In this document: positions 11,802-56,628 of the stretch, piece by piece | Layout: each line of letters opens with the position of its first letter | Numbering within the stretch: the first letter of the stretch is position 1 | Assembly: GCA_040776965.1 (NCBI GenBank) | Contig: JAXGZO010000001.1 | Span: forward strand, 396,675 to 460,674 | DNA length: 64,000 nucleotides | Source of the DNA: Thermoleophilia bacterium | GTDB lineage: Bacteria > Actinomycetota > Thermoleophilia > UBA2241 | Direction of reading: 5' to 3' | Notes under the pieces: generated by a model | The model's input: the letters and a program-made list of their open reading frames with translations, nothing else | The model's database searches: none | Told to the model about the DNA's origin: nothing | Position numbers and translations under genes: made by a program

Positions 11802-11848
11802 ATACCTCTCCCTCCCGCTGATACCATAACCCCGTTGAGATGAGAGCC

Positions 11849-12469: not shown

Positions 12470-12513
12470 TCGCGTTGCCCCTCGCCCGCCGCAGCTACGC
12501 CGGGCGGCGAGCC

Positions 12514-12960: not shown

Positions 12961-13015
12961 CGCTGGGGGCCTGGATGTGGTGATGATGCCCCGGACGGGC
13001 TACGGCGCGGAAGAC

Positions 13016-13453: not shown

Positions 13454-13612
13454 ATGCCTCTCCCTCCTGCTGATACCGCAACCCCCGTCGCCACGAAAGC
13501 TTGTTGAGGTGTCTCTTTCTTCTTTCGGCGAATCCACGGAGAAGTTGAGCGACCTCGGCAGGCCCCCGTCGTCTCCGCGTAAACCGCACCGCCTCCACGC
13601 CAGCAGCGTGCG

Positions 13613-14000: not shown

Positions 14001-14085
14001 ATGCCAATGAAGCTGAATGCGCGGCAAATGGGCCTCTTTTCGGGGGAGCGATGCTATACTCCATGCAAACTCCAGCGAGGTCGCC

Positions 14086-15150
14086 ATGAAGGGACTCATC
14101 TTGAGCGGCGGCGCGGGCACACGCCTACGCCCCATTACGCACACCTCGGCCAAGCAGCTCGTACCCGTGGCCAACAAGCCGGTGCTCTTTTACGGCCTGG
14201 AGGCCATGTACGCCGCGGGCATCCGCGAGGTCGGCATCGTCGTGGGCAGCACCCGCGCGGAGATCGAGGAGGCGGTCGGCGACGGCAGCCGCTTCGGGCT
14301 CAGCGTCACGTACCTCCCGCAGGAGGCGCCGCTGGGCCTCGCCCACGCAGTGCTCATCAGCGAGGCCTTTCTCGGCGACGAGCCCTTTGTGATGTACCTC
14401 GGCGACAACCTCCTCAAAGAGGGCATAGAGCCGTTCGTGCGTGCTTTTAACGAGCATCGCCCGGATTCACTGATCTTACTGCAGCGGGTCGACGACCCCA
14501 GCTCGTACGGCATCGCGGAGCTCGACGCGGAGGGCCGCGTCACCCAGCTCGTGGAGAAGCCAGCCGAGCCGCGCAGCGACCTCGCGCTGGTGGGCGTGTA
14601 CCTCTTCACCCCGGCCATCTTCGAGAGCGTTAAGGCCATCTCGCCCTCCGCCCGCGGCGAGCTCGAGATAACCGACGCCATTCAGCACCTCATCGAGCGC
14701 GGCCTCCGCGTCGACCCCCACACGGTCACGGGCTGGTGGAAAGACACGGGCAAGCTGGAGGACATGCTCGAGGCCAACCGCCTCATCCTTAACACCATCA
14801 CTCGCGACCTGCGTGGCACCGTTATCGATAGCCTCATTGAGGACGCGGTACAGGTGGGCGAGGGGAGCGTGCTCGAGCGCTGCAGCGTGCGCGGCCCAGT
14901 GGTCATAGGCCGCAACTGCCGCATAACCGACGCCTACGTCGGCCCCTACACGGCCATCGGCGACGACGTAGTGGTGGAGCGCGCCGAGCTGGAGCACTCG
15001 ATCCTCCTCGAGGAGAGCTGCATCCGCCGCCTCGGCGCACGCCTCACCGACAGCCTCGTCGGCCGAAACTGCACGATAGAACACAGCGACGCGCCGCCGG
15101 TAGCGTACCGGTTTATGATCGGCGACTCCTGCCAGATCGGCCTCCCCTGA
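14086..15150 (+). CDS. rmlA: Glucose-1-phosphate thymidylyltransferase (long form with a C-terminal beta-helix)
   Basis: MKGLILSGGAGTRLRPITHTSAKQLVPVANKPVLFYGLE is the canonical RmlA N-terminus. Track ORF 14017 is 5'-extended. Confidence 0.9.
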   Translation: MKGLILSGGAGTRLRPITHTSAKQLVPVANKPVLFYGLEAMYAAGIREVGIVVGSTRAEIEEAVGDGSRFGLSVTYLPQEAPLGLAHAVLISEAFLGDEPFVMYLGDNLLKEGIEPFVRAFNEHRPDSLILLQRVDDPSSYGIAELDAEGRVTQLVEKPAEPRSDLALVGVYLFTPAIFESVKAISPSARGELEITDAIQHLIERGLRVDPHTVTGWWKDTGKLEDMLEANRLILNTITRDLRGTVIDSLIEDAVQVGEGSVLERCSVRGPVVIGRNCRITDAYVGPYTAIGDDVVVERAELEHSILLEESCIRRLGARLTDSLVGRNCTIEHSDAPPVAYRFMIGDSCQIGLP

Positions 15151-15175
15151 GCGCATCGCACGAGAGAGGAGCCCC

Positions 15176-15664
15176 ATGATCCACGGCGTGATGACGAAGA
15201 ACCTCCGAGTGGTCCCCGACGAACGCGGACGCCTCATGGAGTGCCTCCGCAACGACGACGACCTCTTTATTCAGTTCGGCCAGCTCTACATGACGACCAC
15301 CTACCCCGGCGTCGTTAAAGGCTGGCACCTCCACGACGCACAGTGGGACAACATCGTCTGTGTTAAGGGCATGCTCAAACTCGTGTTGTGCGACGGCCGC
15401 GGGGCCGAAGGCGACGCGGCCGCTCCCGGCCACGCGGCGAGCCCCACCGCCGGCGAGATTCAAGAGTTCTTTATCGGCGAGTACAAGCCCATGCTCGTCC
15501 GCGTACCACCGGGCGTGTGGCACGGCTGGAAGTGCGTGAGCGTTGAGGAGGCCTACGTCGTCAACGCCCCCACCGAGACCTATAAGTACGACACGCCCGA
15601 CCAGCGCGAGCTGCCGCACAACACGCCCGCTATTAACTACGACTGGGGCGTCCGACTGCGCTAG
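15176..15664 (+). CDS. rmlC: dTDP-4-dehydrorhamnose 3,5-epimerase (cupin)
   Basis: 162 aa. RmlC-like motifs are present (RGRLMECLR...GWHLH...). It sits between rmlA and rmlD. Confidence 0.75.
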   Translation: MIHGVMTKNLRVVPDERGRLMECLRNDDDLFIQFGQLYMTTTYPGVVKGWHLHDAQWDNIVCVKGMLKLVLCDGRGAEGDAAAPGHAASPTAGEIQEFFIGEYKPMLVRVPPGVWHGWKCVSVEEAYVVNAPTETYKYDTPDQRELPHNTPAINYDWGVRLR

Positions 15665-15684
15665 CGCGCGGCCGGAGCACGCAC

Positions 15685-16560
15685 ATGCTGCGCTGGTTTA
15701 TCACGGGCGGCGGCGGCCAGCTCGCCACCGCGTTCGCCGAGCGACTCACCGGCGAGGTCTTTCTCAGCCGCGAGGAGACCCTCGACATACGCAACGCGGC
15801 GGCCGTGGCCGCGGCGATCCACAGCTTCGCCCCCCACGTCGTGCTGCACACCGCCGCCTTCACCGACGTGGACGGCGCGGAGGCAACCTCCGCGGCCGCG
15901 GAGGTTAATGTAGACGGCACGCGCAACATCGTTAACGCCGTGCGCGGCAGCTCCACGGCGGTCATCTCCTTCAGCACCGACTACGTCTTCGACGGCACCA
16001 AAGGCGCTCCGTACGTGGAGAGCGACGCGCCGAGGCCGCTCAACGCCTACGGCCGCACCAAGTTGCTCAGCGAGGAGATCGTGCTGAGCTGGGCGCACGG
16101 CACCGTTATACGCACCTCGTGGCTCTTCAGCGAGACCGGCCGCAACTTCGTAAAGACGATCCTCGCCGCCGGCCGCCAAAAGGCCGCGGCGGGCGAGCCC
16201 CTTCGCGTCGTCGACGACCAGGTGGGCTCCCCCACGTACGCCGGCCACCTCGCCGCCGGCGTTGAGGAGGCCGTCCTCGGCGACCTCGCGCCCGGCCTCT
16301 ACCACATGGCGGGCGGCGGCTGGTGCTCGTGGCGAACCTTCGCCGCCCAGATCCTCCACGACGCCGGCATCGCCGCAGAGGTCCTGCCCATCACCACGGC
16401 CGAGCTGGGCCGACCGGCGGCGCGCCCGGCGTTCTCCGCCCTTATCAGCGAGCGCGGCGCCCCGCAGCTGCCGCACTGGCGAGAGGGCACCGCCCTCGCG
16501 GTCCAGGCCCTCACCAAGGATGACCGACGCCCCCCACACACCGAGGAGACGCACCCATGA
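15685..16560 (+). CDS. rmlD: dTDP-4-dehydrorhamnose reductase
   Basis: 291 aa. MLRWFITGGGGQLATAF...STDYVFDG is the RmlD signature. Confidence 0.85.
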   Translation: MLRWFITGGGGQLATAFAERLTGEVFLSREETLDIRNAAAVAAAIHSFAPHVVLHTAAFTDVDGAEATSAAAEVNVDGTRNIVNAVRGSSTAVISFSTDYVFDGTKGAPYVESDAPRPLNAYGRTKLLSEEIVLSWAHGTVIRTSWLFSETGRNFVKTILAAGRQKAAAGEPLRVVDDQVGSPTYAGHLAAGVEEAVLGDLAPGLYHMAGGGWCSWRTFAAQILHDAGIAAEVLPITTAELGRPAARPAFSALISERGAPQLPHWREGTALAVQALTKDDRRPPHTEETHP

Positions 16561-17564
16561 AGCTCGTGGTCACCGGCGGCGCCGGGTTTATAGGCTCCAA
16601 CTTCATCCTCCACATGCTGAGGCGCCACGCCGACATCGAGATCGTCAATCTCGACAAGCTCACCTACGCCGGCAACCTCGAGAACCTCCGCGAGGTGGAG
16701 GCCGACGAGCGCTACTCCTTCGTTAAGGGCGACATCTGCGACGCGGCGCTCGTGCGCCGGGCGCTGCGCGGCGCGGACGCCGTCGTTAACTTCGCCGCGG
16801 AGACCCACGTCGACCGCTCCATCAGCGGGCCACAAGACTTCATCCGCACCGACGTACTGGGCACGCAGACCCTCCTGGAGGCGGTGCGCGAGTTCGGCAT
16901 CGCCCGCTACCTGCAAATCAGCACCGACGAGGTGTACGGCTCCACGGAGGTGGGCTCCTTCGGCGAGCACGACCCGCTGAACCCCTCGAGCCCCTACTCG
17001 GCCAGCAAAGCCGCCGGCGACCTGCTCGTGCTGGCTTACGCCACCACGTACGGCACGCCGGCGCTCATCACCCGCAGCTCCAATAATTACGGGCCGCGGC
17101 AGTACCCCGAAAAGCTCGTGCCGCTCTTTATCACCAACGCGGTCGACGACCTGGCGCTCCCGGTGTACGGCGACGGCCAGCAAATACGCGACTGGATCTA
17201 CGTCGACGACAACTGCGCCGGCATCGAGGCCGTGCTCCTCAACGGCACCGACGGCGAAATTTACAACATCGGGGGCGGCAACGAGGTCGCCAACCTCACC
17301 ATCACCGGGGAGATCCTGCGCCTGCTCGAGAAGGGCGACGAGCTCATCCGCTACGTCGCCGACAGACCCGGGCACGACCGCCGCTACTCCATTAGCTGCG
17401 CCAAGGCCCACGCCCTCGGCTGGCGGCCGGAGGTGCCCTTCGCGGTCGGCCTCGAGCGCACCGTGGCGTGGTACCGCGACAACCCGCAGTGGTGGCGCCC
17501 CATTAAGTCGGGGGAGTGGCGAGCGTACTACGAGGCGCAGTACCCCGAGGTGGGGCGAGCATAA
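16557..17564 (+). CDS. rmlB: dTDP-glucose 4,6-dehydratase
   Basis: MKLVVTGGAGFIGSNF; YSASKAAGDLL (the YxxxK of extended SDRs). Its start overlaps the rmlD stop (ATGA). Confidence 0.9.
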   Translation: MKLVVTGGAGFIGSNFILHMLRRHADIEIVNLDKLTYAGNLENLREVEADERYSFVKGDICDAALVRRALRGADAVVNFAAETHVDRSISGPQDFIRTDVLGTQTLLEAVREFGIARYLQISTDEVYGSTEVGSFGEHDPLNPSSPYSASKAAGDLLVLAYATTYGTPALITRSSNNYGPRQYPEKLVPLFITNAVDDLALPVYGDGQQIRDWIYVDDNCAGIEAVLLNGTDGEIYNIGGGNEVANLTITGEILRLLEKGDELIRYVADRPGHDRRYSISCAKAHALGWRPEVPFAVGLERTVAWYRDNPQWWRPIKSGEWRAYYEAQYPEVGRA

Positions 17565-17788
17565 CCGAGTGAGTGAGGGCGGGGCGAAGAAGCGGCGCTC
17601 GCTCAGCTCTGCTTTTGAATCCGAGTACATTCCCCTGTCCGAACTTCGGGAAGATGGGCAGAGTAAGAGAGACAACGTTGCCTACAGTTTTTCACCCGTT
17701 CTGCCGAAAGAAGCGTCAGAGATCAAAAAGGGGGCTCTCGCACAAGACGAGAGACGCTACCACGCCACAAGAGCGAGAGGAGTATCAC

Positions 17789-18220
17789 ATGAAGCGTTTC
17801 GCAAAGGGCCAGGGGGGTTTCACCCTCATCGAGCTGCTGGTGGTTATCATCATCATCGGCATCCTCAGCGCCATCGCTATCCCTATGTTCCTCGGGCAGC
17901 GCGATAAGGCCAAAGAGGCCGCGATGAAGTCCGGTATCCACAGCATCCAGGTGGGCGTGCAGAGTTATGCCGTGGACAACAACGATGTGTATCCGTCGGC
18001 TGCAGCAAGCGGTGGCGATATTCTTGCTGCAGATAAAACCAAAGTCCAAGCGCTCGTGAGCCCGTGGCCGAACAACCCGTGGAGTACTAGCAGCGCTGCG
18101 ATGACGGGCACGGCAGCCGGGGCGAAGGGCGACTATACCTACGCGACGGCAACCGACAGCTTTAGTCTTAAAGGCTGGGGTAAAAGTAGCACCACCGCCC
18201 CCATCATCACCGTCCCCTAA
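17789..18220 (+). CDS. Type IV pilin paralog I (only copy on the + strand)
   Basis: MKRFAKGQGGFTLIELLVVIIIIGILSAIAIPMFLGQRDKAKEAAMKSGIHSIQ...SPWPNNPW...PIITVP. Its 5' leader and first roughly 190 nt are about 95% identical to the reverse complement of paralog C. Confidence 0.85.
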   Translation: MKRFAKGQGGFTLIELLVVIIIIGILSAIAIPMFLGQRDKAKEAAMKSGIHSIQVGVQSYAVDNNDVYPSAAASGGDILAADKTKVQALVSPWPNNPWSTSSAAMTGTAAGAKGDYTYATATDSFSLKGWGKSSTTAPIITVP

Positions 18221-31395: not shown

Positions 31396-34300
31396 GTGAC
31401 CGAGCCTGCAGCCTCAAAGCCGACCCCCGCGGTCGCGCTCACGATCGACGGCGAACACGTAAGCGTCCCCCCGGGGAGCACGATCCTCGAAGCCGCACGT
31501 ACCCTCGGCATCGAGATCCCCACCCTCTGCCAGCACGACACCCTTAAACCCGCGTCGGCGTGCCGCCTCTGCGTGGTCGAGGTCGCCGGTCGCCGCGACC
31601 CCGTCACCGCCTGCGACACGTACGTGGCGGAGGGCATGATCATCACCACTCACAACGAGGAGCTTCGCGCTATCCGCCAGCTCAACCTCGAGCTGCTGTT
31701 CAGCGACCACACCTCGTACTGCACGCCGCCCTGCCGCGACGCCTGCCCCACGCACATCAAGATCCCCGAGTTTCTCGAGCACATCGCGGCCCGCGACTAC
31801 GAGGCCGGCATGCGGGTGCTGCGCGAGGACCTGCCCTTCCCCGGCATCCTCGGCCGCGTCTGCCCGCAGCCCTGCCAGACGCCCTGCCGCCGCCAGCTCG
31901 TGGACAGCGGCATCACGATCTGCCAGCTCCACCGCTTTATGGCCGACAGCACGCGCGCCGGCGAACAACTCGGCGAGCTGCTCCTGCCCACCGAGCAAAA
32001 GCCGGAGAGCGGCAAGCGCATCGCTATCGTCGGCGGCGGCCCCGCAGGGCTCTCCGCCGCCTTCTACTCCCGGCTCGAGGGCCACGCCGTCAAGATCTTC
32101 GAGGCGCAGCCCAAGCCCGGCGGCATGCTGCGCTACGGCATCCCGAGCTACCGCCTTCCGCGCGCGATCCTTGAGGAGGAGATCAACCTCCTCTGGCGCA
32201 TGGGCGTAGAGATCGAGACCGGCGTGCGCCTCGGCACCCACCTCCACCTCGCCGACCTGCGAGAGGAGTACGACGCCGTCTTCCTCGCCCTCGGCGCCTT
32301 TAACGCGAACGCCATGCGCTGCGAGGGCGAAGACGCCCCCGGTGTGGTCACCGCTATCGACTTCCTCGGCGACCTGGAGCGCAACGGCACCGTCGCCTGC
32401 GGCAACAAGGTCACCGTCATCGGCGGCGGCTTTACCGCCATGGACGCCTGCCGCACCGCCGTCCGCCTCGGCGCCGAGGAGGTCACCTGCCTCTACCGGC
32501 GCTCGCGCAAGGAGATGCCAGCCCATCACACCGAGGTGGACGAGGCCGAGGAGGAGGGCGTGCGCCTCGAGCTGCAGGTCGCGCCGCTGCGCGTGCTCAC
32601 CGACGAGGCGGGCGACGTGTGCGGCATCGAGATGATCCGCATGGAGCTCGGCGAGCCAGATGCCTCCGGCCGCCGGCGCCCCGTCCCCATGGAGGGCTCC
32701 GAGTTCGTCATCGAGTGCGACCAAGTTATCAGCGCCATCGGCCAGTACCCCAAGCTCGACGGCGCGGGCGAGGCCGAGGGCATCGAGCACACCCGCTGGC
32801 GCACCATCCAGGTCGACGACTGGACGCTCCAAACCGCCCTGCCTAACGTGTTCGCCGGCGGCGACGCCGTCCTGGGCGCACAGACGGTTGTGCAGGCTAT
32901 CGCGCAGGGCAAGAAGGCCGCCTGGAGCATCGCGGCCTTCCTTGAGGGCGACGATCTGCAGGCCATCTCGGCCCACCTCCAGGGGCTCCACGACGCGCCC
33001 TTCCTCGAGGCGCTCCGCACCAAGGGCGAGCTCGAGCGCCGCGTCCGCCGACTGGCCGAGATCCCGCCGGTCTTTATCGACATCAACACCGGGATTACAC
33101 AGACAAGCGCCCCGGCCACCATGCCCAAGCTCAGCCCTGAGGAGCGCCGCACCAACTTCGAGCAAATAGAGCTCGGGTTCGCCGAGGACGACGCCGTCCG
33201 CGGCGCCGAGCTCTGCCTGCAGTGCACCTGCGAGGCACACGGCGCCTGCGACCTGCAGCGCTACGGTATTGAGTACGAGGTCGCGCAAAACCGGTTCCAG
33301 GGCACTGAGGCCAGGGCGTACGAGGCCTACGAGACACAGCCGCTCATAGCCTACGACCCCAAACGCTGCATCCTCTGCGGCAAGTGCGTTAACGTCTGCC
33401 GCGACGTGCAGGGCACCGAGGCCATTAACTTCTCCCAGCGCGGCTTCAGCGCCAAGGTCGCCGCCTCCTTCGACAAGGAGCTCGACACGTCGTTCTGCCG
33501 CTTCTGCGGCCAGTGCGTCGACATTTGCCCAACCGGCGCGCTCACCAACCGGCAGCTCACGAGGGTTCGCTCCTGGGAGCGCACCAAGGTCCGCACCACC
33601 TGCCCCTTCTGCGGCGTGGGCTGCAACTTCGACCTCAACGTCGCCGAGGGCAAGGTCGTCGGCGTCACCGCAGCCTACGACGCGCCGGTCAACCAGGGCT
33701 CGCTCTGCGTCAAGGGCCGCTTCCACACCGACCTCATCGAGAGCGAGGAGCGCATCACCACACCGCTGATTAAGCGCAACGGTGAGTGGGAGCCGGCCAC
33801 CTGGGAGGAGGCCCTCGACTTCACCGCCGAGCGGCTCCTGCAGATCAAGGCGAAGCACGGCCCCGACTCCATCGCCGTCCTCAGCTCGGCGCGCTGCACC
33901 AACGAGGAGAACTACCTCCTCCAACGCCTCACGAGGGCGGGGCTCAACACCAACTCCATAGACCATTGTGCGCGTACCTGACACGCTCCTACGGTGGCCG
34001 GTCTGGCCGCCACGTTAGGTTCAGGCGCGATGACCAACTCGATCGGCGAGATCCCGCACAACGACGTCCTCTTCATCATCGGGTCCAACGCCACTGAGGC
34101 GCACCCCATTATCGGCAACAAGATGAAGCAGGCGGCCGCCGGCGGCGCCAAGCTCATCGTCGTCGACCCACGACGCACCGAGCTCGCCGAGCGGGCACAC
34201 CTCTGGATCCGCATTAAGCCGGGCACCGACAACGCCCTCATTAACGGCATCCTGCACACCATCATCACCAACGGCTGGCACGACCAGGCCTACATCGACG

Positions 34301-35622
34301 AGCGCTGCGAGGGCTTTAACAACCTCTGGAAGACCGTCGAGGGCTACACGGCGGAGTACTCCGCGGCCATCACCGGCGTGCCACCGGAGCAGATCCGCGA
34401 GGCGGCCGAGCTCTACGCCACCACCGAGCGCGCCGGCATCTTCTACACGCTCGGCATCACCGAGCACACCACCGGCACGGCCAACGTCATGAACCTCGCC
34501 AACCTGGCCATGGTCACCGGGCACATCGGCGTGGAGTTCGCGGGCATCAACCCCCTGCGCGGGCAAAACAACGTGCAGGGCGCGTGCGACATGGGCGCCC
34601 TGCCCAACTCGCTGCCCGGCTACCCGAGCGTCGGCGACCCCTTGGCACGGGCGCGGTTCGAAGAGGTCTACGGCGTCGCCCTCCCCGAGAAGATGGGCCT
34701 CCGCATACCCGAGATGCTCGACCTGGCGGTTCACGGGCACCTCAAGGCCCTGTACGTTATGGGCGAGGACCCGGCGCTCACCGACGCCGACGCCAACCAC
34801 GTGCGCAAGGCACTCGAGAGCGTCGAGTTCCTCGTAGCGCAAAACATCTTTATGACGGAGACGGCCAAGTACGCCGACGTCTTCCTCCCGGCGGCGCTCT
34901 ACGCCGAGAAGGAGGGCACCTTTACCAACACCGAGCGTCGGGTGCAGCGCGTCCGCAAGGCGGTCGACCCGCCCGGCGACTGCCGGCCCGACTGGCGCAT
35001 CATCCTCGACCTCAGCGAGCGACTCGGGCACCCCATGCCCTTCTCGTCACCCGAGGAGGTCTTCGAGGAGGTCCGCCGCGTTATCCCCGCCTTCGCCGGC
35101 ATCTCCTACGCGCGCATTGAGGAGGAGGGCGGGCTGCAGTGGCCGTGCCCGAGCGAGGATCACCCGGGCACGCAGTACCTGCACAAAGGGCGATTCACCC
35201 GCGGCAAGGGGCTGCTGCAAGGCATCCCCTTCGAGCCGCCGGCCGAGCTCACCGACGAGGAGTACCCACTACTGCTCACCACCGGGCGCATGCTCTACCA
35301 GTACAACATCTCCACGCGCATCTCAAAGAGCCTCGACGGGCTTCGCCCGCACGAGCTCGCCGAGGTCAACCCGGCGGACGCCGAGCGCTACGGGTTCGCC
35401 GACGGCGAGCTGATCCGCGTGAGCTCTCGCCGCGGCTCCATCACGAGCCGCATCGTCGTCACCGACAAAGTCGCACCGGGCACCATCTTCATGACCTTCC
35501 ACTACAAGGAGTCGCCGGTTAACGAGCTCACCAACTCGGCCGCCGACCCCGTCACCATGACGGCGGAGTTTAAGGTGTGCGCCGTCAGGGTGGAGAAGAT
35601 CGACCAGGTCGTGCCGGCGTAG
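31396..35622 (+). CDS. fdhA: Selenocysteine-containing formate dehydrogenase alpha subunit fused to N-terminal [2Fe-2S], GltD-like NAD(P)H/FAD and 2x[4Fe-4S] domains; the in-frame TGA at 33979..33981 is read as Sec
   Basis: The frame runs continuously across the TGA: ...[30 protein letters not shown], matching the E. coli FdhF Sec context CARVUHGPSVAGL. Upstream there is a 2Fe-2S ferredoxin-like domain, a GltD-like domain (IAIVGGGPAGLSAAFY) and 2x CxxCxxCxxxCP. The TTCPFCGVGCNFDL region looks like the molybdopterin-oxidoreductase Fe4S4 domain. Downstream is a full MopB/MGD domain. The track splits the gene into 31354..33981 and 33994..35622. The start is GTG 31396 after GGAG. Confidence 0.85.
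33982..34020 (+). promoter_or_regulatory. Bacterial SECIS-like stem-loop immediately 3' of the Sec UGA
   Basis: UGA CAC GCU CCU ACG GUG GCC GGU CUG GCC GCC ACG UUA GG. The apical GGUCUG loop is flanked by GGCC/GGCC and resembles the E. coli fdhF SECIS apical loop (GCAGGUCUGCAC). Confidence 0.6.
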
Positions 35623-35648
35623 CCCCGCACGACCGCGGCGCAGACGAA

Positions 35649-35692
35649 CGCCGGCCCGAGGGCGCTTCGCCCTCGGGCCGGCGTCATCTTTT
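35649..35692. terminator. Bidirectional Rho-independent terminator between the convergent fdhA and ftcD genes
   Basis: CGCCGGCCCGAGGGCG-CTTC-GCCCTCGGGCCGGCG has 15-16 bp perfect arms, followed by TCATCTTTT. Confidence 0.7.
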
Positions 35693-36632
35693 AAGAACGA
35701 GCGGTCGGCTCTTCGCCGAGGTCGCCCGTTTGCAGCTCAACGAGGTGGTTCTCGAGGATCTGCGAGCGCTCGAACCCCTCGAGCCTGAGGAAGTACTCGG
35801 CGCAGCTCACGAGCGCCTCTTGCGGCAGGGTGCCGATGATCTGCGTGCCCACCACCGGCACCCCGTACCGGGCGGCCTCCAGCTCGATGAGCTGGAAGAC
35901 CCGGTGGATGGGCGTGGCCGCCGTGTCGAACATGTTCATGGAGACGGCCACCACGCCGCGCTCCGTGAGCGGCAGCCCCACGGAGCGCACGGTGCTAAAC
36001 CCGCCGCTCGGGCCGCGCACCATCGTAGCGATCGCCTTCGCGATCGCTACGTCGGTGGTGCCGAGCATGACGTTAACGGCCACCAGCCCGGAGGTGCCGG
36101 CGCTGACGATGGTGGCGCCGGCGCTCGGGTGCAGCCTCGCGGGGCCCAGGTCGGGCGCCCGCTCCGGCAGATGGGCGACCTCCTTGAGCCCCTCGTACTG
36201 ACCGGCGCGAATGAAGCTGAGGCTGCGCCGCTCCTCACACCGCGCGTTGGCGCCGCTGAAGTACACGGGCACGCCGTAGCGACCGAAGACCTCCCGCCCG
36301 ATGCGCTCGGCGAGCTCCACGCACTCCTCCAGCGAGACGCCGAGCAGCGGGAAGACGGGGATCGTATCCTGCGCGCCGATGCGCGGATGGTCGCCGGACT
36401 GCCGCTCCATGTCGATGAGCTCGTACGAGGCGCCCGCCATGGCGAGCAGCGCCTCCATGAGGTGCTCGGGCTCGCCGAGCACCTCGACGACGGTGCGGTT
36501 AAAGTCGGCGTCGGGGTAGTAGTCGATGAGCTTAACCCCGCTCCGGCCCCGCAGGCGGCCTACGATTGCCTCGATCACCTCCGGCCGCCTGCCCTCGCTG
36601 AAGTTGGGGACGGCGTGAATGTACCCGGTCAT
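35691..36632 (-). CDS. ftcD: Glutamate formimidoyltransferase (FtcD N-terminal domain family)
   Basis: The start is MTGYIHAVPNFSEGRRPEVIEAIV (the formiminotransferase N-terminus), and the length is about 313 aa. Track ORF 35691..36875 is 5'-extended. Confidence 0.75.
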   Translation of the reverse strand: MTGYIHAVPNFSEGRRPEVIEAIVGRLRGRSGVKLIDYYPDADFNRTVVEVLGEPEHLMEALLAMAGASYELIDMERQSGDHPRIGAQDTIPVFPLLGVSLEECVELAERIGREVFGRYGVPVYFSGANARCEERRSLSFIRAGQYEGLKEVAHLPERAPDLGPARLHPSAGATIVSAGTSGLVAVNVMLGTTDVAIAKAIATMVRGPSGGFSTVRSVGLPLTERGVVAVSMNMFDTAATPIHRVFQLIELEAARYGVPVVGTQIIGTLPQEALVSCAEYFLRLEGFERSQILENHLVELQTGDLGEEPTARS

Positions 36633-36642
36633 TGGTGCCCCC

Positions 36643-38856
36643 TTACCGCACGACGATCTTGCCCGTGCCCGCGATGCGCTGCGCGTTGCCGGTAAAGTCC
36701 CGCGCGGTAACGGTGTACGTGTACGCGCCGCGGACGGAGGGCCGCCACTTCGCGATGGTGTGCCACACGCCGACCTTGGCCGTCGCGACCTTGATGGTTT
36801 TAACGACGGCCTTCTTCTTGTTGCGCACGGTGATCGTAACGTCGGTGGCCACGGAGCTCTGCGTGTCGTCGACACGATAGCGGAGGGGCAGCAGCCGACC
36901 GCGCGTTCCGCTCACCGTCTTAGTACTGGCGCGGGTGATGGGCCCGAGAACGTCGGGCACGCCGCCGGTCGTGGTGGCGAGAATAGTGCCGAAGTCGCCG
37001 GTTACCCAAGCGGCCCCCGAGCCGGAGCGAGGGGCGGCGACGGCCAAAAGCCACCTATCCGTCCCCGCGTTTTGCTTCTTCCAGACCTTGCCGCCGTCGG
37101 TGGTGGCGAGAATAGTGCCGGCCTCACCGGCAACCCAGCCGCGCTTTGCATCGGCGAAGGAGACGCTCTGGAGACGCGTACTCACCCCCGAGACCTGTGC
37201 CTTCCAGGTCGCGCCGGCGTTAGTGGTGGCGAGGATCGTGCCATCCCTCCCCACCGCCCAACCGTGCGCTGCGTCGGGGAAGGAGACGTCGTACAGCCAG
37301 GTATCGCTCTTCGAGTTCTGCTTCTTCCAGACCTTACCGGCGTTGGTAGTGGCGAGAATCGTGCCGGCCTCCCCGACGGCCCATCCGCGCTTCGCGTCGG
37401 GGAAGGAGACGCTCTCGATCCACCCATCTACCCCGGAGACCTGGAGTTGCCACGCCTTGCCGCCGTTGGTGGTGGCGAGAATCGTGCCATCGTTCGCGGT
37501 AACCCAACCGTGCGCTGCGTCGGGGAAGGAGACGCCGCGAAGAGACCCCCCGCCTACCATGGGAGACTGGGGCTTCCAGCTCTTGCCGCCGTTGGTAGTG
37601 GCGAGGATGGTACTGCCATCGCCGACGGCCCAGCCACGCGTTGCGTCGGGGAAGGAGACGGCGGTGAGGTGCTTCGTCGTCCCCGAGCCCTGCTCTTGCC
37701 AGGTCGCACCACCGTCGGCGGTGGCGAGAACAGTGCCGAGCAAGCCGACGGCCCAGCCACGCGTTGTGGTTGGAAACGCAACGTCCCAGAGGTTTTGCTC
37801 CGTCTCGGCCGAGCCCTGAGGCTGCCAGCTCTTGCCGCCATCCGCACTCGTGAAGATAAGACCCCTGGCGTCGTAGTTCTCGAGAACCCAGCCCGTGATA
37901 ACGCCGGAGTTTGAGCCAAAGGAGGAGACGGCGGTGGCGACCGTAACCCCAACGAGGGTCGTCGTCGTCCAATTCTCGCCACCGTCGGTGGTAGTGAGAA
38001 CGGTGCCATTGTCGCCGACAACATACCCACGCGCTACGCTGGAGAAGGAGACACCCCTGAGGATCTTCGTCGTCCCCGAGTTCTGAGCAGCCCAAGAGGT
38101 GCCGCCATCGGTGGTGGTGAGGAGGGTGCCGGCTTCGCCCACCACCCAGCCGTTGGTCGCGGTGGAGAAGGAGACGGCGGTGAGGTTTACGCCGACCAGC
38201 ACGGTCTTTTTAACCCAAGTCGCGCCGCCATCGAGCGTGGTGAGCACAACGCCCTTTTGCCCCACGGCGCATCCGTGGAGCGAGTCGGTGAAGGTGATAG
38301 CGTTGATCTGCTCGGTCGCCCCGGAGGTTTGCTTCGTCCAGGTCGCGCCACCGTCGACGGTGGCGAGAATGAGGCCGTTTGAGCCCACCACCCAGCCGCG
38401 CGACTTCGTGAGCCAAAAGACGGCGGTGAGCCACTCCTTGGTGCCGGCATCCCGCTGCACCCAGGTTTTACCGCCGTCCGCCGTGGTGAGGATGACGCCG
38501 TAGCCACCCACGGCGCAGCCCTGCGTCGCGCTCGCGAAGGAGACGGAACTGAGTGTGTTAAGCACCCCCGGGCTCTGCGGCACCCACGTTCGCCCGCCGT
38601 TTTTGGTGGCGAGAATCGTGCCGTTATGGCCCACCACCCAGCTGTGACGCTCGTCGGGCGAGGCGACGGAGAAGAAGCTGGGCGCCGGCGCCGCAGCGCT
38701 CTGCCAAACCCAGCCGCCGTCGCCGGTGGAGATGAGGGCGCCGGCGCTCGCCGGGCTCAGCAAGAGCAGAGCGAGGAGAAAAAGGAGGGGAAGGAGGGGG
38801 CGGCGGGCGAAGCCCCTCCGCCTGCTCGGGATGTGAGCTGTTGGCATCGTACTCAT
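36643..38856 (-). CDS. Secreted BNR/Asp-box repeat beta-propeller protein (Ycf48-like) with a C-terminal Ig-like domain
   Basis: 737 aa. It has a signal peptide, about 14 tandem 40-45-aa repeats each with T(x)DGGxTW/SW (TKNGGRTW, TADGGKTW, TVDGGATW ... TTDGGKVW), and a C-terminal beta-sandwich-like region (RYRVDDTQSSVATDVTITV...). Confidence 0.7.
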   Translation of the reverse strand: MSTMPTAHIPSRRRGFARRPLLPLLFLLALLLLSPASAGALISTGDGGWVWQSAAAPAPSFFSVASPDERHSWVVGHNGTILATKNGGRTWVPQSPGVLNTLSSVSFASATQGCAVGGYGVILTTADGGKTWVQRDAGTKEWLTAVFWLTKSRGWVVGSNGLILATVDGGATWTKQTSGATEQINAITFTDSLHGCAVGQKGVVLTTLDGGATWVKKTVLVGVNLTAVSFSTATNGWVVGEAGTLLTTTDGGTSWAAQNSGTTKILRGVSFSSVARGYVVGDNGTVLTTTDGGENWTTTTLVGVTVATAVSSFGSNSGVITGWVLENYDARGLIFTSADGGKSWQPQGSAETEQNLWDVAFPTTTRGWAVGLLGTVLATADGGATWQEQGSGTTKHLTAVSFPDATRGWAVGDGSTILATTNGGKSWKPQSPMVGGGSLRGVSFPDAAHGWVTANDGTILATTNGGKAWQLQVSGVDGWIESVSFPDAKRGWAVGEAGTILATTNAGKVWKKQNSKSDTWLYDVSFPDAAHGWAVGRDGTILATTNAGATWKAQVSGVSTRLQSVSFADAKRGWVAGEAGTILATTDGGKVWKKQNAGTDRWLLAVAAPRSGSGAAWVTGDFGTILATTTGGVPDVLGPITRASTKTVSGTRGRLLPLRYRVDDTQSSVATDVTITVRNKKKAVVKTIKVATAKVGVWHTIAKWRPSVRGAYTYTVTARDFTGNAQRIAGTGKIVVR

Positions 38857-47495: not shown

Positions 47496-48383
47496 ATGAG
47501 GAAGAAGTTCTCCTACCTACGACCGGGGTCGGTCGCAGAGGCCTGCGAGATGAAGGCTCACCACGGTGAGTCCGCTCTCTTTATCGCCGGCGGTACCGAC
47601 CTCATGCTCGAGTGGAAGCGCGAGGTCGCTCCCGCGTTCGATTTCGTCATCGACATCACCGGGCTCAGCGAGCTCAGGTACATAAGAGAGGATGCCGGGG
47701 AGCTCCGTGTGGGGGCGCTCACGACGCTCGCCATGATCGAGAATGCCACGCCGAGCAACGCGCTCCTCATCTGCATGAGCGCCGCAGCTTCGCAGATGGC
47801 GACGCCGCAGCTCCGCACTACGGCGACGATCGGCGGCAACATCTGCCATGCTTCGCCGGTCGCCGATATGGCGACGGTGCTCTCTCTCTTCGACGCCGTC
47901 GCGACGGTGCGCTCTTCGAAGGGCGAGCGCACGATCCCCATCTCCGAATTCTTCGTGAGCAATAAAGTGACCTCGATGACCCCCGACGAGCTCCTCACTC
48001 AAGTGAGTATGCCGCTGCCGGACTGCCCGACGCGAGCGAGCTATCAGCGCGCCGTGCGCTCCAGCGTCGACCTCGTTCAGTCGTCCGTGGGCGCTTGCCT
48101 CACGGCGGACGAAGGGGGCCGTGTTACCAAGGCGCGCATCGCCGTAGGTGCCTGCGCGCCGGTGCCGCTGCGATCTCGGGAGGCCGAGGAGTTGCTGTGC
48201 GGCCTTGAGGTGGGCAACCCGGACCAGGACGCTATCGAGCTTGCCGCGGCGCAAGTGGAGTCGGAGATCCGCCCCATCAGCGACCTGCGTGCCGGCGAAG
48301 AGTACCGTCGCGACATCACGCACGTGATGGTTCGCCGGGCGGTCACGGAGTGTCTCTCACAACTAGCCGTCCGGGGCAACTGA
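47496..48383 (+). CDS. Molybdopterin hydroxylase FAD-binding subunit (CoxM/XdhB-like)
   Basis: 295 aa. The FAD-binding motif is ALFIAGGTDLM. RBS AAAGGAGG is present. Confidence 0.8.
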   Translation: MRKKFSYLRPGSVAEACEMKAHHGESALFIAGGTDLMLEWKREVAPAFDFVIDITGLSELRYIREDAGELRVGALTTLAMIENATPSNALLICMSAAASQMATPQLRTTATIGGNICHASPVADMATVLSLFDAVATVRSSKGERTIPISEFFVSNKVTSMTPDELLTQVSMPLPDCPTRASYQRAVRSSVDLVQSSVGACLTADEGGRVTKARIAVGACAPVPLRSREAEELLCGLEVGNPDQDAIELAAAQVESEIRPISDLRAGEEYRRDITHVMVRRAVTECLSQLAVRGN

Positions 48384-48412
48384 CCGGCCGCCGGGTCGAA
48401 AGGAGTACGCTC

Positions 48413-48892
48413 ATGGCGACGCTTAACGTAAATGGCAAGAGCTACGAGCTCGAGTTCGAACCCCATGAGACCCTCGCCGAGGTGCTGCGCACTAAGCTCG
48501 GTCTGATCGGGGTGAGGGTTTCGTGTGGTGAGGGAGAGTGCGGTTCGTGCACCGTTCTCCTCGATGGAGAGCCCACCACTTCGTGTCTCACTCTGGCGAT
48601 GCAGGCTGAGGGTCACGAGATCACCACGATCGAGGGGCTCGGCACCGAGGACGATCTTCACCCGATTCAGCAGGCCTTTATCGATAACCACGGCTTCCAG
48701 TGCGGTGTGTGCACGCCGGGGATCATTCTTAGCACGAAGGCGCTGCTCGATAAAAACCCAGATCCGACGACCGATGAGGTGGCGACGGCGCTCAACGGCC
48801 ACATCTGCCGCTGCGGCGCGTACCCTCAAATCGTCGACTCTGTGATGTGTGCCGCAGAGAGAATGGGAGGAAAATGTGACTGCAAATCGTGA
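48413..48892 (+). CDS. Molybdopterin hydroxylase [2Fe-2S] small subunit (CoxS/XdhC-like)
   Basis: MATLNVNGKSYELEF...CGEGECGSCTV...FQCGVCTPG...CRCGAY are the two 2Fe-2S cluster motifs. Confidence 0.85.
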   Translation: MATLNVNGKSYELEFEPHETLAEVLRTKLGLIGVRVSCGEGECGSCTVLLDGEPTTSCLTLAMQAEGHEITTIEGLGTEDDLHPIQQAFIDNHGFQCGVCTPGIILSTKALLDKNPDPTTDEVATALNGHICRCGAYPQIVDSVMCAAERMGGKCDCKS

Positions 48893-51368
48893 ATTCTCAG
48901 TCGTCGGCAAGCCTATTCCCGTTAAAGACGGCGCGGAGAAGGTCTGCGGGACGCTTAAGTACCCCGTCGACTTCAACCTGCCGGGGCAGGTGTACGGCAA
49001 GATCATCCGCAGCGAACGGCCGCATGCGCTGATCAAGCACATCGACGACTCCAAGGCGCGTAAGGTGCCCGGCTATGTGGGCATGGTGACACACGAAGAC
49101 GCCCCCGGCCACGTGTGGCACGGCGTCTGGTTTAACTACATCGGCGAGATCATGGACGGCCGCGCCCGGTTCTGCGGCGACGAGATCGGCGCGGTCGCGG
49201 CGGAGACGCCTTGGGCCGCGGAGGAGGCGCTCAGCCTCATTGAGGTCGAGTACGAAGACCTGCCCGCCGTGTTCGACGAGGACGAGGCCCTGTTGCCGGA
49301 TGCGCCGCAGGTGCAGGAGGCCGGTAACGCCCGTGAGCCCGACATGTACGCATGGGGCGACCTCGAGGCCGGTAAGGCTGCGGCGGACTACACAGCCTCC
49401 GCCAACGTTAAATTTAAAAGTCAGTCGTACGCGCCCATGGGCCGCAACGCTGCGCTCGCCGAGTGGAGCGGCGACAAGGTGACGCTCTGGACCGGTTCGC
49501 AGTCCCCCTCGGAGCTGCGCGACGGGCTCGCCCAGGCCTTCGGCCTCCCGGTCTCCAAGACGCGCGTCATCTCTCTGCCGCTGGGCTGCTCCTTCGGTGA
49601 GTTTTGGAGTAACAACTTCATGATGGTCGCGCCGTTGCTCGCGAAGAAGGTGCGGCGCCCCGTCAAGATCGAGCTCACCGCCGAGGAGTGCATCGCTCAC
49701 GTTAAGCGGCGCCATAACGAGCACTCCAAGGTCAGCATGGGGTGCACGAAGGACGGCGAGATCACCTTCATCGACGTGTACCACATCATGGATAACGGCG
49801 CCTACGGGTTCAAGATCGACGTTGGCTACTTCAATATCGACAACTGGGGTGCTCGCGCCCGCAGTGGCCGCTACATCTCCCAGGGCGTCTCCACGAACCT
49901 CGTCACCGGCGGCTGCATGCGCGGCGTCGGCGACATTACGATGGGCGCGCTCGTGGAGCGCTGTGCCGACCAGCTCGCGGAGCAGTGCGGCATCGACCCC
50001 GTCGAGTTCCGCCGGCGCAATCAAATTAGGCCGGGTGATGCGCTGCGCCAGAGGTGGGCACAGAGCATCATGCGCGACGACGAAGAGGCGTGGCGCGAGC
50101 TGATTACGAGGAACAGTGCCGAGGCGCCGAAGGGGTACCTCGACGGGCTCCCCAAGCTCTTCCACCTCTCGAGTGGCGACAGCGCCGAGCTTCTCCGCAA
50201 GGGCGCAGAGGCATTCGGCTGGAAGGACAAGTTCGTTGGGTGGGGCAAGCCATACGCCGTGAACGGCACGAAGCGTCGCGCCGTCGGTGTGGGTACCGGT
50301 ATCCACCTCTGCGGCGAGGAGCCGGAGGGCCAGACCGACGCGGTCGTGCGGATCATGAAGGACGGCAGCGCCAAGGTGCACTGCAGCGTCGGTCGCATGG
50401 GTACCTCCGCCGACACCACACAGTCGCAGATCGCCGCCGAGGTGCTCGGCATCTCCATCGACCTCGTGGAGGCCGAGCTCGGCGACACCGACTCCTGCCC
50501 TTGGAGCCGTGGCTCACTGGCGAGCACCACGCTCTTCCGCACCGGCTTTAAGACGTGGGCGGCGGCGTGGGACGCCCGCCGGCAGCTGCTCAAGCTCGCC
50601 GGCAATGAGTTCTTCGATACGCCCAACGGCATCGATACGCTCGACATTAAAGACGGCATGATCTTCAGCATCGATCCGAGCGTGAAGCTCGTCCGCTACT
50701 CCGGAGAGGAGCGTGTGCCGACGCCGCTGCCGGAGGGCGATACCCGCACCTCGATCTCCATCTCCGACGTGATGGGCGCCATGCGGCTCGACGCCCTCGG
50801 GCCGACCGACAGCATCACCGGCCGCCCCGGCATCCCCATGCCGCCGTCGACCGCGTTCTCCCGGCACTTCGCCGCGCAGTTCGTCGACCTTGAGGTCGAC
50901 ATTGAGACCGGCGAGATCAAGCTGCTCGACTACCTCGTCGGTCAGGACAGCGGAACGATCATCAATCCCGGGGTATTCGCCGGGCAGATCGTCGGCGGGG
51001 CCATCGTCGGCGCCGGGCAGTGCCTCTGCGAGGTGCTCAAGTTCGACGAGCAGGGGCGCATCAGAAACCCCAACCTCTCCGACTACAAGGTGCTGCGCTT
51101 TAAGGACTGGCCGTCGGGCTCCACTAAGTGGCTCTTCAACGAGGCGTATGAGCCCATCGGTCCCTTTGGAGCTCGCTCCGGCGGTGAGGCGCCGATCGCG
51201 GCGCCACCGGTCGCCATCTCACAGGCCGTGTACAACGCTACGGGGTGCTGGATCGACGTCCCCATGACCCCCGAGAAGGTGCTGAGCACGCTCAAGGCCG
51301 CAGGTAAGGGCATCACCGCTTGCAAGGTCGATTCGGGAGCAGCAGCCGACGACGCTCCCCGGCAGTGA
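48876..51368 (+). CDS. Molybdopterin hydroxylase large (Mo-cofactor) subunit, xanthine dehydrogenase/aldehyde oxidoreductase family; substrate unknown
   Basis: 830 aa. The GTG start follows GGGAGG plus a 5-nt spacer. The N-terminus is REFSVVGKPIPVKDGAEKVCG. It has MoCo-binding domain features. Confidence 0.8.
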   Translation: MTANREFSVVGKPIPVKDGAEKVCGTLKYPVDFNLPGQVYGKIIRSERPHALIKHIDDSKARKVPGYVGMVTHEDAPGHVWHGVWFNYIGEIMDGRARFCGDEIGAVAAETPWAAEEALSLIEVEYEDLPAVFDEDEALLPDAPQVQEAGNAREPDMYAWGDLEAGKAAADYTASANVKFKSQSYAPMGRNAALAEWSGDKVTLWTGSQSPSELRDGLAQAFGLPVSKTRVISLPLGCSFGEFWSNNFMMVAPLLAKKVRRPVKIELTAEECIAHVKRRHNEHSKVSMGCTKDGEITFIDVYHIMDNGAYGFKIDVGYFNIDNWGARARSGRYISQGVSTNLVTGGCMRGVGDITMGALVERCADQLAEQCGIDPVEFRRRNQIRPGDALRQRWAQSIMRDDEEAWRELITRNSAEAPKGYLDGLPKLFHLSSGDSAELLRKGAEAFGWKDKFVGWGKPYAVNGTKRRAVGVGTGIHLCGEEPEGQTDAVVRIMKDGSAKVHCSVGRMGTSADTTQSQIAAEVLGISIDLVEAELGDTDSCPWSRGSLASTTLFRTGFKTWAAAWDARRQLLKLAGNEFFDTPNGIDTLDIKDGMIFSIDPSVKLVRYSGEERVPTPLPEGDTRTSISISDVMGAMRLDALGPTDSITGRPGIPMPPSTAFSRHFAAQFVDLEVDIETGEIKLLDYLVGQDSGTIINPGVFAGQIVGGAIVGAGQCLCEVLKFDEQGRIRNPNLSDYKVLRFKDWPSGSTKWLFNEAYEPIGPFGARSGGEAPIAAPPVAISQAVYNATGCWIDVPMTPEKVLSTLKAAGKGITACKVDSGAAADDAPRQ

Positions 51369-54385: not shown

Positions 54386-56628
<2,243 letters not shown>

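What the first reader, a model, noticed from the sequence alone, without database searches (positions are those of the whole stretch)
33979..34020. In-frame UGA read as selenocysteine in formate dehydrogenase, with a SECIS hairpin resembling the E. coli fdhF apical loop
The ORF track splits one gene at a TGA. The flanking sequence DHCART-[TGA][20 protein letters not shown] aligns with the FdhF Sec site ARVUHGPSVAGL. The reading frame continues for 540 more codons of molybdopterin-oxidoreductase domain. The 3' flank, ACG GUG GCC GGU CUG GCC GCC ACG U, has the GGUCUG apical loop characteristic of the bacterial fdhF SECIS. This marks the organism as a selenoprotein user.
Basis: partly seen in the sequence, partly recalled or inferred. 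Interest (0 to 1): 0.65.

Follow-up and report, generated by a model that had tools for sequence, protein, structure and literature searches.

The report
Selenocysteine codon in formate dehydrogenase
The stop-like TGA at 33979 is very probably a selenocysteine codon, with its RNA hairpin signal, inside one long formate dehydrogenase gene; this is a well-known kind of recoding, and here gene callers have wrongly split the gene in two.

Summary
One reading frame (GTG 31396 to TAG 35622, 1408 codons) is broken only by the TGA at 33979-33981, which cuts a single molybdopterin domain in two. The TGA aligns with Sec140 of E. coli FdhF and with Cys in 100 full-length homologues. It is TGA in 72 of 72 related loci that carry a stop at this position. 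A 7-bp hairpin (33993-33999 with 34005-34011) and a GGUCU loop (34000-34004) lie 18 nt after the UGA. Compensatory changes at synonymous sites in 70 loci support this hairpin strongly. The loop Gly codon is GGT in 66/70 Sec loci but only 3/11 Cys loci. Sequence after the TGA is under purifying selection (dN/dS 0.17-0.36).

Not shown: the 64-kb window holds no selA, selB, selC or selD, so the organism's Sec machinery remains inferred.

The Sec site itself is ordinary. The enzyme is less ordinary. A GltD-like NAD(P)H module is fused to FdhA, and the gene is a mosaic: its N-terminal half matches Cys-type fused enzymes, and its catalytic half matches an unfused Sec FdhA.

The parts
31396..35622 (+). 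One gene for a fused NAD(P)H-linked, selenocysteine-type formate dehydrogenase. It has 1408 codons including the in-frame TGA, starts at GTG with GGAG 7-10 nt upstream, and stops at TAG.
   Evidence: Translation. Start context; the start agrees with the 861-aa database protein P0003, 100% identical. TIGR01591 at 843 bits against a cut-off of 666, over residues 734-1399 across the TGA.
31429..31656 (+). 2Fe-2S domain (Fer2_4).
   Evidence: Pfam PF13510, E = 1e-20.
31717..32910 (+). GltD/NfnB-like module: Fer4_20 (two [4Fe-4S]) plus the Pyr_redox_2 FAD/NAD(P)H-binding domain. It contains YRRSRKEMPA.
   Evidence: Pfam PF14691 at E = 3e-19 and PF07992 at E = 3e-34. NCBIfam glutamate-synthase small-subunit-like models. 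The motif is read from the translation.
33340..33546 (+). 2x[4Fe-4S] ferredoxin-like domain. The mosaic junction lies inside it, at about 33390-33480.
   Evidence: Pfam PF22117 and PF12838. Sliding-window identity to P0001 and L001.
33586..33741 (+). Molybdopterin-oxidoreductase [4Fe-4S] domain.
   Evidence: Pfam PF04879. The Cys ligands align with E. coli FdhF Cys8, Cys11, Cys15 and Cys42.
33751..35022 (+). Molybdopterin (bis-PGD) catalytic domain, interrupted only by the TGA.
   Evidence: PF00384 profile positions 1-80 before the TGA and 96-353 after it.
33979..33981 (+). UGA read as selenocysteine, the Mo/W ligand, within the motif U-H-A-P.
   Evidence: Aligns with E. coli FdhF Sec140 and with Cys in 100 homologues. 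TGA in 69/80 genome loci and TGC/TGT in 11.
33993..34011 (+). SECIS hairpin: stem 33993-33999 paired with 34005-34011 (7 bp, including one G-U) and apical loop GGUCU at 34000-34004.
   Evidence: Covariation on 70 loci: 93% of cells paired, 5 of 7 pairs with double changes, score 0.394 against 0.165 shuffled (0/500). MFE -14.5 kcal/mol, z = -2.85. GGT in 66/70 Sec loci against 3/11 Cys loci.
33976..34034 (+). Full-length but sub-threshold match to Rfam SECIS_3 (RF01989).
   Evidence: 50.3 bits against a gathering score of 63; E = 4e-11 for 201 nt; model positions 1-59 of 59.
35269..35583 (+). Molybdopterin dinucleotide-binding domain.
   Evidence: Pfam PF01568, E = 1.5e-30.
35648..35694 (+). 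Intrinsic-terminator-like 17-bp G+C-rich hairpin with a T run, directly after the true stop.
   Evidence: Terminator scan. No such site follows the TGA at 33981.

Best explanation
The UGA at 33979-33981 is decoded as selenocysteine. The proposed mechanism follows. As the ribosome reaches the UGA, the mRNA just downstream forms a 7-bp hairpin (33993-34011) with a GGUCU loop 18 nt after the codon. SelB-GTP carrying Sec-tRNA(Sec) binds this hairpin through its C-terminal winged-helix domains and delivers Sec to the A site. Translation then continues for 546 more codons.

The product is a single polypeptide of about 150 kDa. Sec862, with His863 and Arg1055, forms the Mo/W-bis-PGD active site. Electrons from formate pass along the [4Fe-4S] chain to the fused GltD/NfnB-like FAD module and on to NAD(P)+, or run in reverse for CO2 reduction.

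Shown here: the single frame, the Sec/Cys alignment, conservation of the TGA, hairpin covariation, purifying selection downstream, and the domain architecture. Inferred: SelB and tRNA(Sec) in this organism, actual selenium incorporation, the metal, and the NADP(H) preference.
For: - One frame, with a single domain split by the TGA. The full TIGR01591 profile matches across the TGA at 843 bits against a cut-off of 666.
- The TGA aligns with E. coli Sec140. His141, Arg333, Lys44 and the four cluster cysteines are conserved.
- 100 full-length homologues carry Cys at this column. 17 close relatives (73-100% identity) end exactly at ...IDHCART. For three of them the DNA shows TGA followed by 547-552 in-frame codons.
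- 69/80 genome loci have TGA and 11 have TGC/TGT. The internal stop is TGA in 72/72 loci, while terminal stops are TAA 28, TGA 26 and TAG 18.
- Hairpin covariation: pair 21-27 is CG 49, AU 18, UA 2, GC 1; pair 18-30 is GC 56, UA 6, AU 4, CG 3, GU 1. Both pairs join third-codon positions. No shuffle of 500 reached the observed score, and the slid controls gave at most 0.118 against 0.394. In the Cys loci the helix is not kept.
- The loop Gly codon is GGT in 66/70 Sec loci and 3/11 Cys loci (p = 2e-6). In this gene GGT is only 6 of 116 Gly codons.
- dN/dS downstream of the TGA is 0.17-0.36. In the three close fused relatives it is 0.19-0.36 downstream and 0.30-0.32 upstream.
- The hairpin fits the published bacterial SECIS model: a 3-9 nt loop, G in the first two loop positions, and 16-37 nt from the UGA (PMC13188914). 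Another description gives a 6-8 bp stem with a conserved G about 20 nt downstream (PMC4605307).
- TGA also ends 13 of 35 ordinary genes in the window, so it is not reassigned genome-wide.
Against: - No selA, selB or selD gene, and no tRNA of any kind, is in the 64-kb window. The decoding machinery of this organism is therefore unverified.
- Rfam gives no hit at gathering threshold. The SECIS_3 match is 13 bits below its cut-off.
- The 52-nt single-sequence fold is no better than shuffles.
- The related loci are not phylogenetically independent, so the shuffle statistics overstate significance.
- There are only 11 Cys control loci.
Confidence: 0.92

Rival explanations
1. Pseudogene: a TGC/TGT Cys codon mutated to TGA and killed the gene, and the downstream part is a decaying remnant.
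For: The TGA differs from a Cys codon by one base. Gene callers report a truncated 861-aa protein. The Sec machinery is not seen in the window.
Against: The same TGA is kept across a clade at 73-85% protein identity and in 69/80 more distant loci. The 546 downstream codons have no stop or frameshift, GC3 of 0.92, and dN/dS of 0.17-0.36. The hairpin covaries.
Confidence: 0.03
2. Two real genes: the N-terminal 861-aa protein stops at the TGA, and a second protein starts independently at GTG 33994.
For: Automatic gene calls in this genome and in three relatives are split this way, with second genes of 535-548 aa.
Against: The split falls inside one Pfam domain and one TIGR01591 profile, at the metal-ligand residue. 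No Shine-Dalgarno-like purine run precedes GTG 33994. The stop is always TGA, always in the same frame with zero spacing, while terminal stops vary. No terminator follows the TGA. The callers' second starts differ between relatives.
Confidence: 0.02
3. The UGA is translated, but not as Sec. It is read by a suppressor or near-cognate tRNA as Cys or Trp, or under a reassigned genetic code.
For: Nothing in the window shows which residue is inserted. UGA followed by C is a weak termination context (general knowledge, not tested here).
Against: TGA ends 13 of 35 ordinary genes in the window. It is the only in-frame stop with coding signal on both sides. The conserved hairpin with a G/U-containing loop at the SelB distance has no role in plain read-through.
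Confidence: 0.03

Closest known systems
E. coli FdhF (formate dehydrogenase H), Sec140, and its fdhF SECIS
   Same: The UGA lies at the aligned Mo-ligand position. His141, Arg333 and the four cluster cysteines are conserved. GGUCUG sits at +22 to +27 from the UGA in both genes. Identity is 45% over 670 aa.
   Different: In the window the loop is a GGUCU pentaloop closed by C-G, and U17 is paired with G31 rather than bulged; the bulged U17 and GGUC loop of E. coli are from my own knowledge. The enzyme carries about 730 extra N-terminal residues with 2Fe-2S, GltD-like and 2x[4Fe-4S] domains.
Moorella thermoacetica / M. mulderi Sec-containing FdhA (the NADP-dependent FDH, Moth_2312 type)
   Same: The catalytic part is 64-66% identical. 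The TGA is the same, and so is the GUG GCC GGU CUG GCC hairpin core. Moorella SelB C-terminal domains are the structural model for SECIS recognition (PMC4605307).
   Different: The Moorella alpha subunit is unfused: about 361 residues precede the Sec. No GltD-like gene lies within 4 kb.
Rfam SECIS_3 (RF01989)
   Same: A full-length alignment (1-59 of 59) starts 3 nt before the UGA, and the upper stem and loop match.
   Different: The score of 50.3 is below the gathering score of 63. Several lower-stem pairs of the model are not formed. The model has a bulged U17 and C31, whereas this clade pairs U17 with G/A31.
Thermococcus onnurineus Fdh3 (NADP-dependent W-FDH with NfnB/GltD-like subunit Fdh3B)
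   Same: A Mo/W-bis-PGD catalytic unit is wired through Fe-S clusters to a GltD/NfnB-like flavoprotein that reduces NADP+ (PMC8965080). The window protein has the same kinds of module.
   Different: Fdh3 has four separate subunits and Cys rather than Sec. Here everything lies on one polypeptide and the active-site residue is Sec. No sequence comparison with Fdh3 was run.
Thermoanaerobacter kivui HDCR FdhF (PDB 7QV7)
   Same: It is the best solved-structure match (E = 5e-226), and the active-site stretch is nearly identical: [27 protein letters not shown].
   Different: It has Cys in place of Sec, no GltD module, and belongs to a hydrogenase filament complex.

Membership tests
Mo/W-bis-PGD formate dehydrogenase alpha subunit (NCBIfam TIGR01591 Fdh-alpha) | Whole-profile match above the curated cut-off | tested here: met
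   843.3 bits against 666.25; residues 734-1399 cover profile positions 1-672 of 672, with Cys written at the TGA position.
Mo/W-bis-PGD formate dehydrogenase alpha subunit (NCBIfam TIGR01591 Fdh-alpha) | Sec/Cys metal ligand followed by the catalytic His, plus the catalytic Arg and the N-terminal [4Fe-4S] cysteines | tested here: met
   Sec140 aligns with the TGA, His141 with His863, Arg333 with Arg1055, and Cys8/11/15/42 are conserved.
Selenoprotein FdhA | In-frame TGA aligned with Cys of homologues (Cys/Sec pair), U-H-x-P motif, and TGA-containing homologues in other organisms | tested here: met
   100 Cys homologues. 69 genome loci with TGA. The motif is U-H-A-P (motif definition from PMC13188914).
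Selenoprotein FdhA | Selenium actually incorporated | not testable with these tools
   Needs 75Se labelling or mass spectrometry.
Bacterial SECIS element (consensus model) | Stem-loop just 3' of the UGA; apical loop of 3-9 nt; upper stem of 4-16 bp; G in the first two loop positions, followed by G or U; 16-37 nt between UGA and loop | tested here: met
   5-nt loop GGUCU, 7-bp stem, 18 nt between UGA and loop. Criteria as given in PMC13188914.
Bacterial SECIS element (consensus model) | Structure conserved by compensatory change | tested here: met
   5 of 7 pairs show double changes. Covariation is 0.394 against 0.165 shuffled (0/500), and slid controls give at most 0.118.
Bacterial SECIS element (consensus model) | Bound by SelB | not testable with these tools
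   No selB gene is available from this genome, and binding needs an experiment.
Rfam SECIS_3 (RF01989) | Score at or above the family's gathering score | tested here: not met
   50.3 bits against 63; no hit at gathering threshold. It works like this family but is not filed as a member by Rfam's criterion.
Sec-decoding trait (selA, selB, selC, selD) | Genes for Sec synthesis and delivery present in the genome | tested here: inconclusive
   None is in the 64-kb window: no tRNA, no SelA/SelB/SelD domains in about 55 ORFs, and no tblastn hit with E. coli SelA/B/D sequences written from memory. The rest of the genome (contig of 1.66 Mb or more) could not be reached.
GltD/NfnB-like NAD(P)H:acceptor flavoprotein module | Fer4_20 two-cluster domain plus the Pyr_redox_2 FAD/NAD(P)H domain | tested here: met
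   PF14691 at E = 3e-19 and PF07992 at E = 3e-34. NF009454 and NF009410 match below their cut-offs because only part of those models is present.
GltD/NfnB-like NAD(P)H:acceptor flavoprotein module | NADP(H) rather than NAD(H) specificity | not tested
   The only lead is the YRRSRKEMPA Arg-Arg motif in the sequence, by analogy with Arg204-Arg205 of Fdh3B (PMC8965080).

The most novel reading that the evidence does not exclude
The Sec form of this fused NAD(P)H-linked formate dehydrogenase did not arise by a point change from Cys plus stepwise evolution of a SECIS. It arose by module exchange. A fused Cys-type gene (P0001-like) and an unfused Sec-type fdhA (L001-like) of the same actinobacterial lineage recombined inside the 2x[4Fe-4S] domain. 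The whole catalytic half moved as one block, together with its UGA and ready-made SECIS. The reverse direction, in which the Cys lineage replaced its catalytic half, is not excluded.
Probability: 0.55. Interest if true: 0.4.

Novelty: new member of a known kind. Interest (0 to 1): 0.27.

Why it matters
For annotation, the two called proteins (861 aa plus about 542 aa) should be merged into one 1408-residue selenoprotein. The same split occurs in at least 17 close relatives in public databases.

For biology, the finding implies a Sec-decoding, probably actinobacterial, organism. It also points to a single-polypeptide, probably NADP(H)-linked Sec formate dehydrogenase / CO2 reductase, an architecture for which I found no published characterisation.

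The mosaic structure gives a concrete example of how a Sec site and its SECIS can move between enzyme architectures as one block.

The Sec/SECIS call itself is textbook and would not surprise a specialist.

Tried and rejected
- **Single-sequence MFE fold of 33979-34030.** It is not significant (z = -0.93). Its register (22-24/28-30, 16-20/31-35) has no covariation support: 0.117 against 0.117 shuffled. Rejected in favour of 15-21/27-33.
- **Rfam at gathering threshold.** Nothing was found. Only a sub-threshold SECIS_3 match appeared when the search was restricted to 201 nt.
- **Lower stem (10-13 with 38-41, or Rfam's longer lower helix).** The pairs are fixed by coding or mostly unpaired, so there is no independent support.
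- **Sel genes.** The whole window was scanned with Pfam and ARAGORN. tblastn with E. coli SelA/B/D sequences recalled from memory was run against the window and 98 loci. The only hit was a SelD fragment in L026, a Deltaproteobacteria MAG.
- **Reaching the source genome.** The exact look-up of P0003 found nothing on record. The cluster look-up gave no accession or name.
- **Second selenoprotein gene in the window.** The strict scan gave only the FDH site. The relaxed redox-motif scan gave 15 hits; several that I checked (e.g. 2203, 14682, 58816) overlap genes on the other strand, and I judged none credible.
- **Metagenome scan for close fused relatives.** Only two partial loci at 65-69% identity were found. 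Three close relatives were fetched by protein look-up instead.
- **Literature on a GltD-FdhA fusion.** Nothing specific was found. The nearest is the multi-subunit T. onnurineus Fdh3.
- **GltD-like partner next to Moorella fdhA.** None lies within 4 kb.
Full report
**1. What is in the sequence**

The window has 66% G+C. On the + strand one reading frame runs from GTG 31396 to TAG 35620-35622. GGAG lies 7-10 nt upstream of the start, and the start agrees with the 100%-identical 861-aa database protein P0003. The frame is interrupted only by the TGA at 33979-33981. 546 codons follow, not 540.

Pfam places these domains in order: Fer2_4, Fer4_20, Pyr_redox_2 (a GltD-like module), a 2x[4Fe-4S] domain, Molybdop_Fe4S4, Molybdopterin and Molydop_binding. 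The Molybdopterin profile is cut by the TGA, with positions 1-80 before it and 96-353 after it. With Cys written at the TGA, residues 734-1399 match the whole TIGR01591 Fdh-alpha profile at 843 bits, against a cut-off of 666.

In all six frames of the window this is the only stop codon with GC3 > 0.8 for 50 codons on both sides. A 17-bp terminator-like hairpin follows the true stop at 35648-35684, and none follows the TGA.

**2. Is the TGA at the selenocysteine position?**

I fetched E. coli K-12 fdhF and aligned it.

- Sec140 falls on the TGA.
- His141 aligns with His863, Arg333 with Arg1055 and Lys44 with Lys773.
- The four [4Fe-4S] cysteines are conserved.
- Identity is 45% over 670 residues.

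The best solved structure is T. kivui HDCR FdhF. It has Cys in the otherwise nearly identical stretch [14 protein letters not shown].

**3. Homologues**

Among the 120 best database proteins, 100 full-length ones (1307-1448 aa) have Cys at this column. 17 close relatives (73-100% identity) end exactly at ...IDHCART. For three of these relatives the DNA shows TGA followed by 547-552 in-frame codons, and gene callers split each one into two genes.

A scan of one genome per species with the C-terminal part returned 80 loci. The codon just before the match is TGA in 69 and TGC/TGT in 11. The internal stop is TGA in 72/72 loci, while the terminal stops of the same genes are TAA 28, TGA 26 and TAG 18. 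In the window itself TGA ends 13 of 35 ordinary genes, so the code is standard.

dN/dS downstream of the TGA is 0.17-0.36. In the three close fused relatives it is 0.19-0.36 downstream and 0.30-0.32 upstream. The distal half is therefore translated and under selection.

**4. The hairpin**

I numbered positions from the U of UGA and aligned the 70 TGA loci without gaps. The helix 15-21 with 27-33, with loop 22-26, scored as follows:

| Measure | Observed | Control |
|---|---|---|
| Cells forming a standard pair | 93% | 80% shuffled |
| Pairs with changes on both sides | 5 of 7 | - |
| Covariation score | 0.394 | 0.165 shuffled (0/500 reach it); at most 0.118 slid |

The two most informative pairs join third-codon positions:

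- Pair 21-27: CG 49, AU 18, UA 2, GC 1.
- Pair 18-30: GC 56, UA 6, AU 4, CG 3, GU 1.

All 70 sequences pair at both. In the 11 Cys loci the same columns pair in only 4-7 of 11.

The loop Gly codon is GGT in 66/70 Sec loci and 3/11 Cys loci (Fisher p = 2e-6). Gly codons at +40 and +46 in the same loci use all four synonyms. In this gene GGT is only 6 of 116 Gly codons. The only 16-codon windows in the gene with at least 6 A/T-ending codons are those around the TGA.

In window coordinates the stem is 33993-33999 with 34005-34011, and the loop GGUCU is 34000-34004. Alone, the hairpin folds this way at -14.5 kcal/mol with z = -2.85.

It fits the published bacterial SECIS model: a 3-9 nt loop, G in the first two loop positions, and 16-37 nt from the UGA (PMC13188914). 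Another description gives a 6-8 bp stem with a conserved G about 20 nt downstream (PMC4605307). GGUCUG occupies the same +22 to +27 as in E. coli fdhF.

The first MFE fold of 52 nt was not significant and chose another register that shows no covariation. Rfam SECIS_3 matches full-length at 50.3 bits, below its gathering score of 63.

**5. What could not be shown**

The window holds no tRNA and no SelA, SelB or SelD domain in about 55 ORFs. tblastn with E. coli Sel proteins written from memory also found nothing. No credible second selenoprotein gene is present. The source genome could not be reached. That the organism decodes Sec is therefore inferred from the gene, not observed.

**6. Mechanism**

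This is standard bacterial Sec insertion. SelB with Sec-tRNA(Sec) is recruited by the hairpin 18 nt after the UGA, Sec862 becomes the Mo/W ligand, and translation continues.

The enzyme is a one-polypeptide FDH. Its Fe-S chain leads to a GltD/NfnB-like FAD module, so the partner is most likely NAD(P)+/NAD(P)H. The YRRSRKEMPA motif resembles the Arg-Arg pair credited with NADP(H) preference in T. onnurineus Fdh3B (PMC8965080). That point is inference only.

Three rivals are each contradicted by sections 3 and 4: a pseudogene, two separate genes, and non-Sec read-through.

**7. Beyond the finding: a mosaic gene**

| Region of the window protein | vs P0001 (Cys-type, fused; Actinomycetes/Thermoleophilia MAGs) | vs L001 (Sec-type, unfused FdhA; Actinomycetes MAG) |
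|---|---|---|
| Residues 1 to about 665 | 73-79% identical | 46% (2Fe-2S region only) |
| Catalytic half, residues about 695-1408 | 51% | 84% |

The 2Fe-2S region is 73% identical to P0001 and the GltD-like module 79%. L001 has 377 residues before its Sec and no GltD module.

For the GltD module, P0001 nests among the fused Sec genes: L095-P0001 is 83%, against L095-window at 79%. For the catalytic module, L001 nests among them: L095-L001 is 89%, against L095-window at 84%.

The crossover lies at about residues 665-695, roughly nt 33390-33480, inside the 2x[4Fe-4S] domain. So the UGA and its SECIS appear to have moved between architectures as part of a catalytic block. The direction of the exchange is open.

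Some unfused Sec loci carry a separate GltD-like gene just upstream of fdhA (L014, L047, L051), and a few other fused Sec genes exist (L029, L073, L076).

**8. Verdict**

The Sec/SECIS feature is a new member of a very well known kind: FdhA is the most widespread bacterial selenoprotein (PMC1794560, PMC13188914). Interest is low to moderate. It comes mainly from the annotation error and from the fused, mosaic architecture.

Noticed in passing
window 31396-35622; junction at about 33390-33480: The gene is a mosaic. The N-terminal 2Fe-2S + GltD-like half is 73-79% identical to Cys-type fused FDHs (P0001). The catalytic half is 84% identical to an unfused Sec FdhA (L001) and only 51% to P0001.
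   Followed up: partly
window 31396-33981 and 33994-35622; L095, L096, L097: Public gene calls split this gene and its close relatives into two proteins at the TGA (861 aa plus about 542 aa here; 859+548, 849+543 and 860+535 in the relatives). The second start codon differs between relatives.
   Followed up: yes
window 33940-34030: Local break in codon bias around the UGA. The only 16-codon windows of the gene with at least 6 A/T-ending codons lie here. The gene's sole TTA is at 34015. A rare ATA at 33958 is kept in the three close fused relatives (L095-L097). This may reflect RNA-level or translation-kinetic constraints beyond the 7-bp hairpin.
   Followed up: partly
window 35648-35694 and 35691-36875 (-): A 17-bp G+C-rich terminator hairpin lies between the FDH gene and a convergent glutamate formiminotransferase-like gene (FTCD_N/FTCD). 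This puts two C1/folate-related genes side by side.
   Followed up: no
L014 1472-2923; L047, L051, L018: In some unfused Sec fdhA loci a separate GltD-like gene ends right where fdhA begins. This is a two-gene counterpart of the fusion seen in the window.
   Followed up: partly
window 9173-13537 and 17573-18220: An array of at least seven short genes carries the prepilin-type N-terminal methylation motif (type IV pilin-like). It flanks a dTDP-rhamnose-type sugar nucleotide operon at 14017-17564.
   Followed up: no
window 54386-57568 (-) and 56762-58081 (+): The long P-type ATPase ORF overlaps an AMP-binding enzyme gene on the other strand. The ATPase HMA domain starts only at residue 326, so the first 270 or so codons of that ORF are probably a shadow extension.
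   Followed up: no
window 47496-51368 and 59529-60413: Other molybdenum-cofactor genes are present: a xanthine-dehydrogenase-family enzyme (FAD and MoCo-binding subunits) and a MoCF_biosynth protein. No fdhD or mobA is seen next to the FDH gene.
   Followed up: no
L026 9185-9631: A SelD (selenophosphate synthetase) homologue, 51% identical to the recalled E. coli SelD, lies about 3.5 kb downstream of a Sec fdhA in a Deltaproteobacteria MAG. It is the only sel gene seen in any fetched locus.
   Followed up: no
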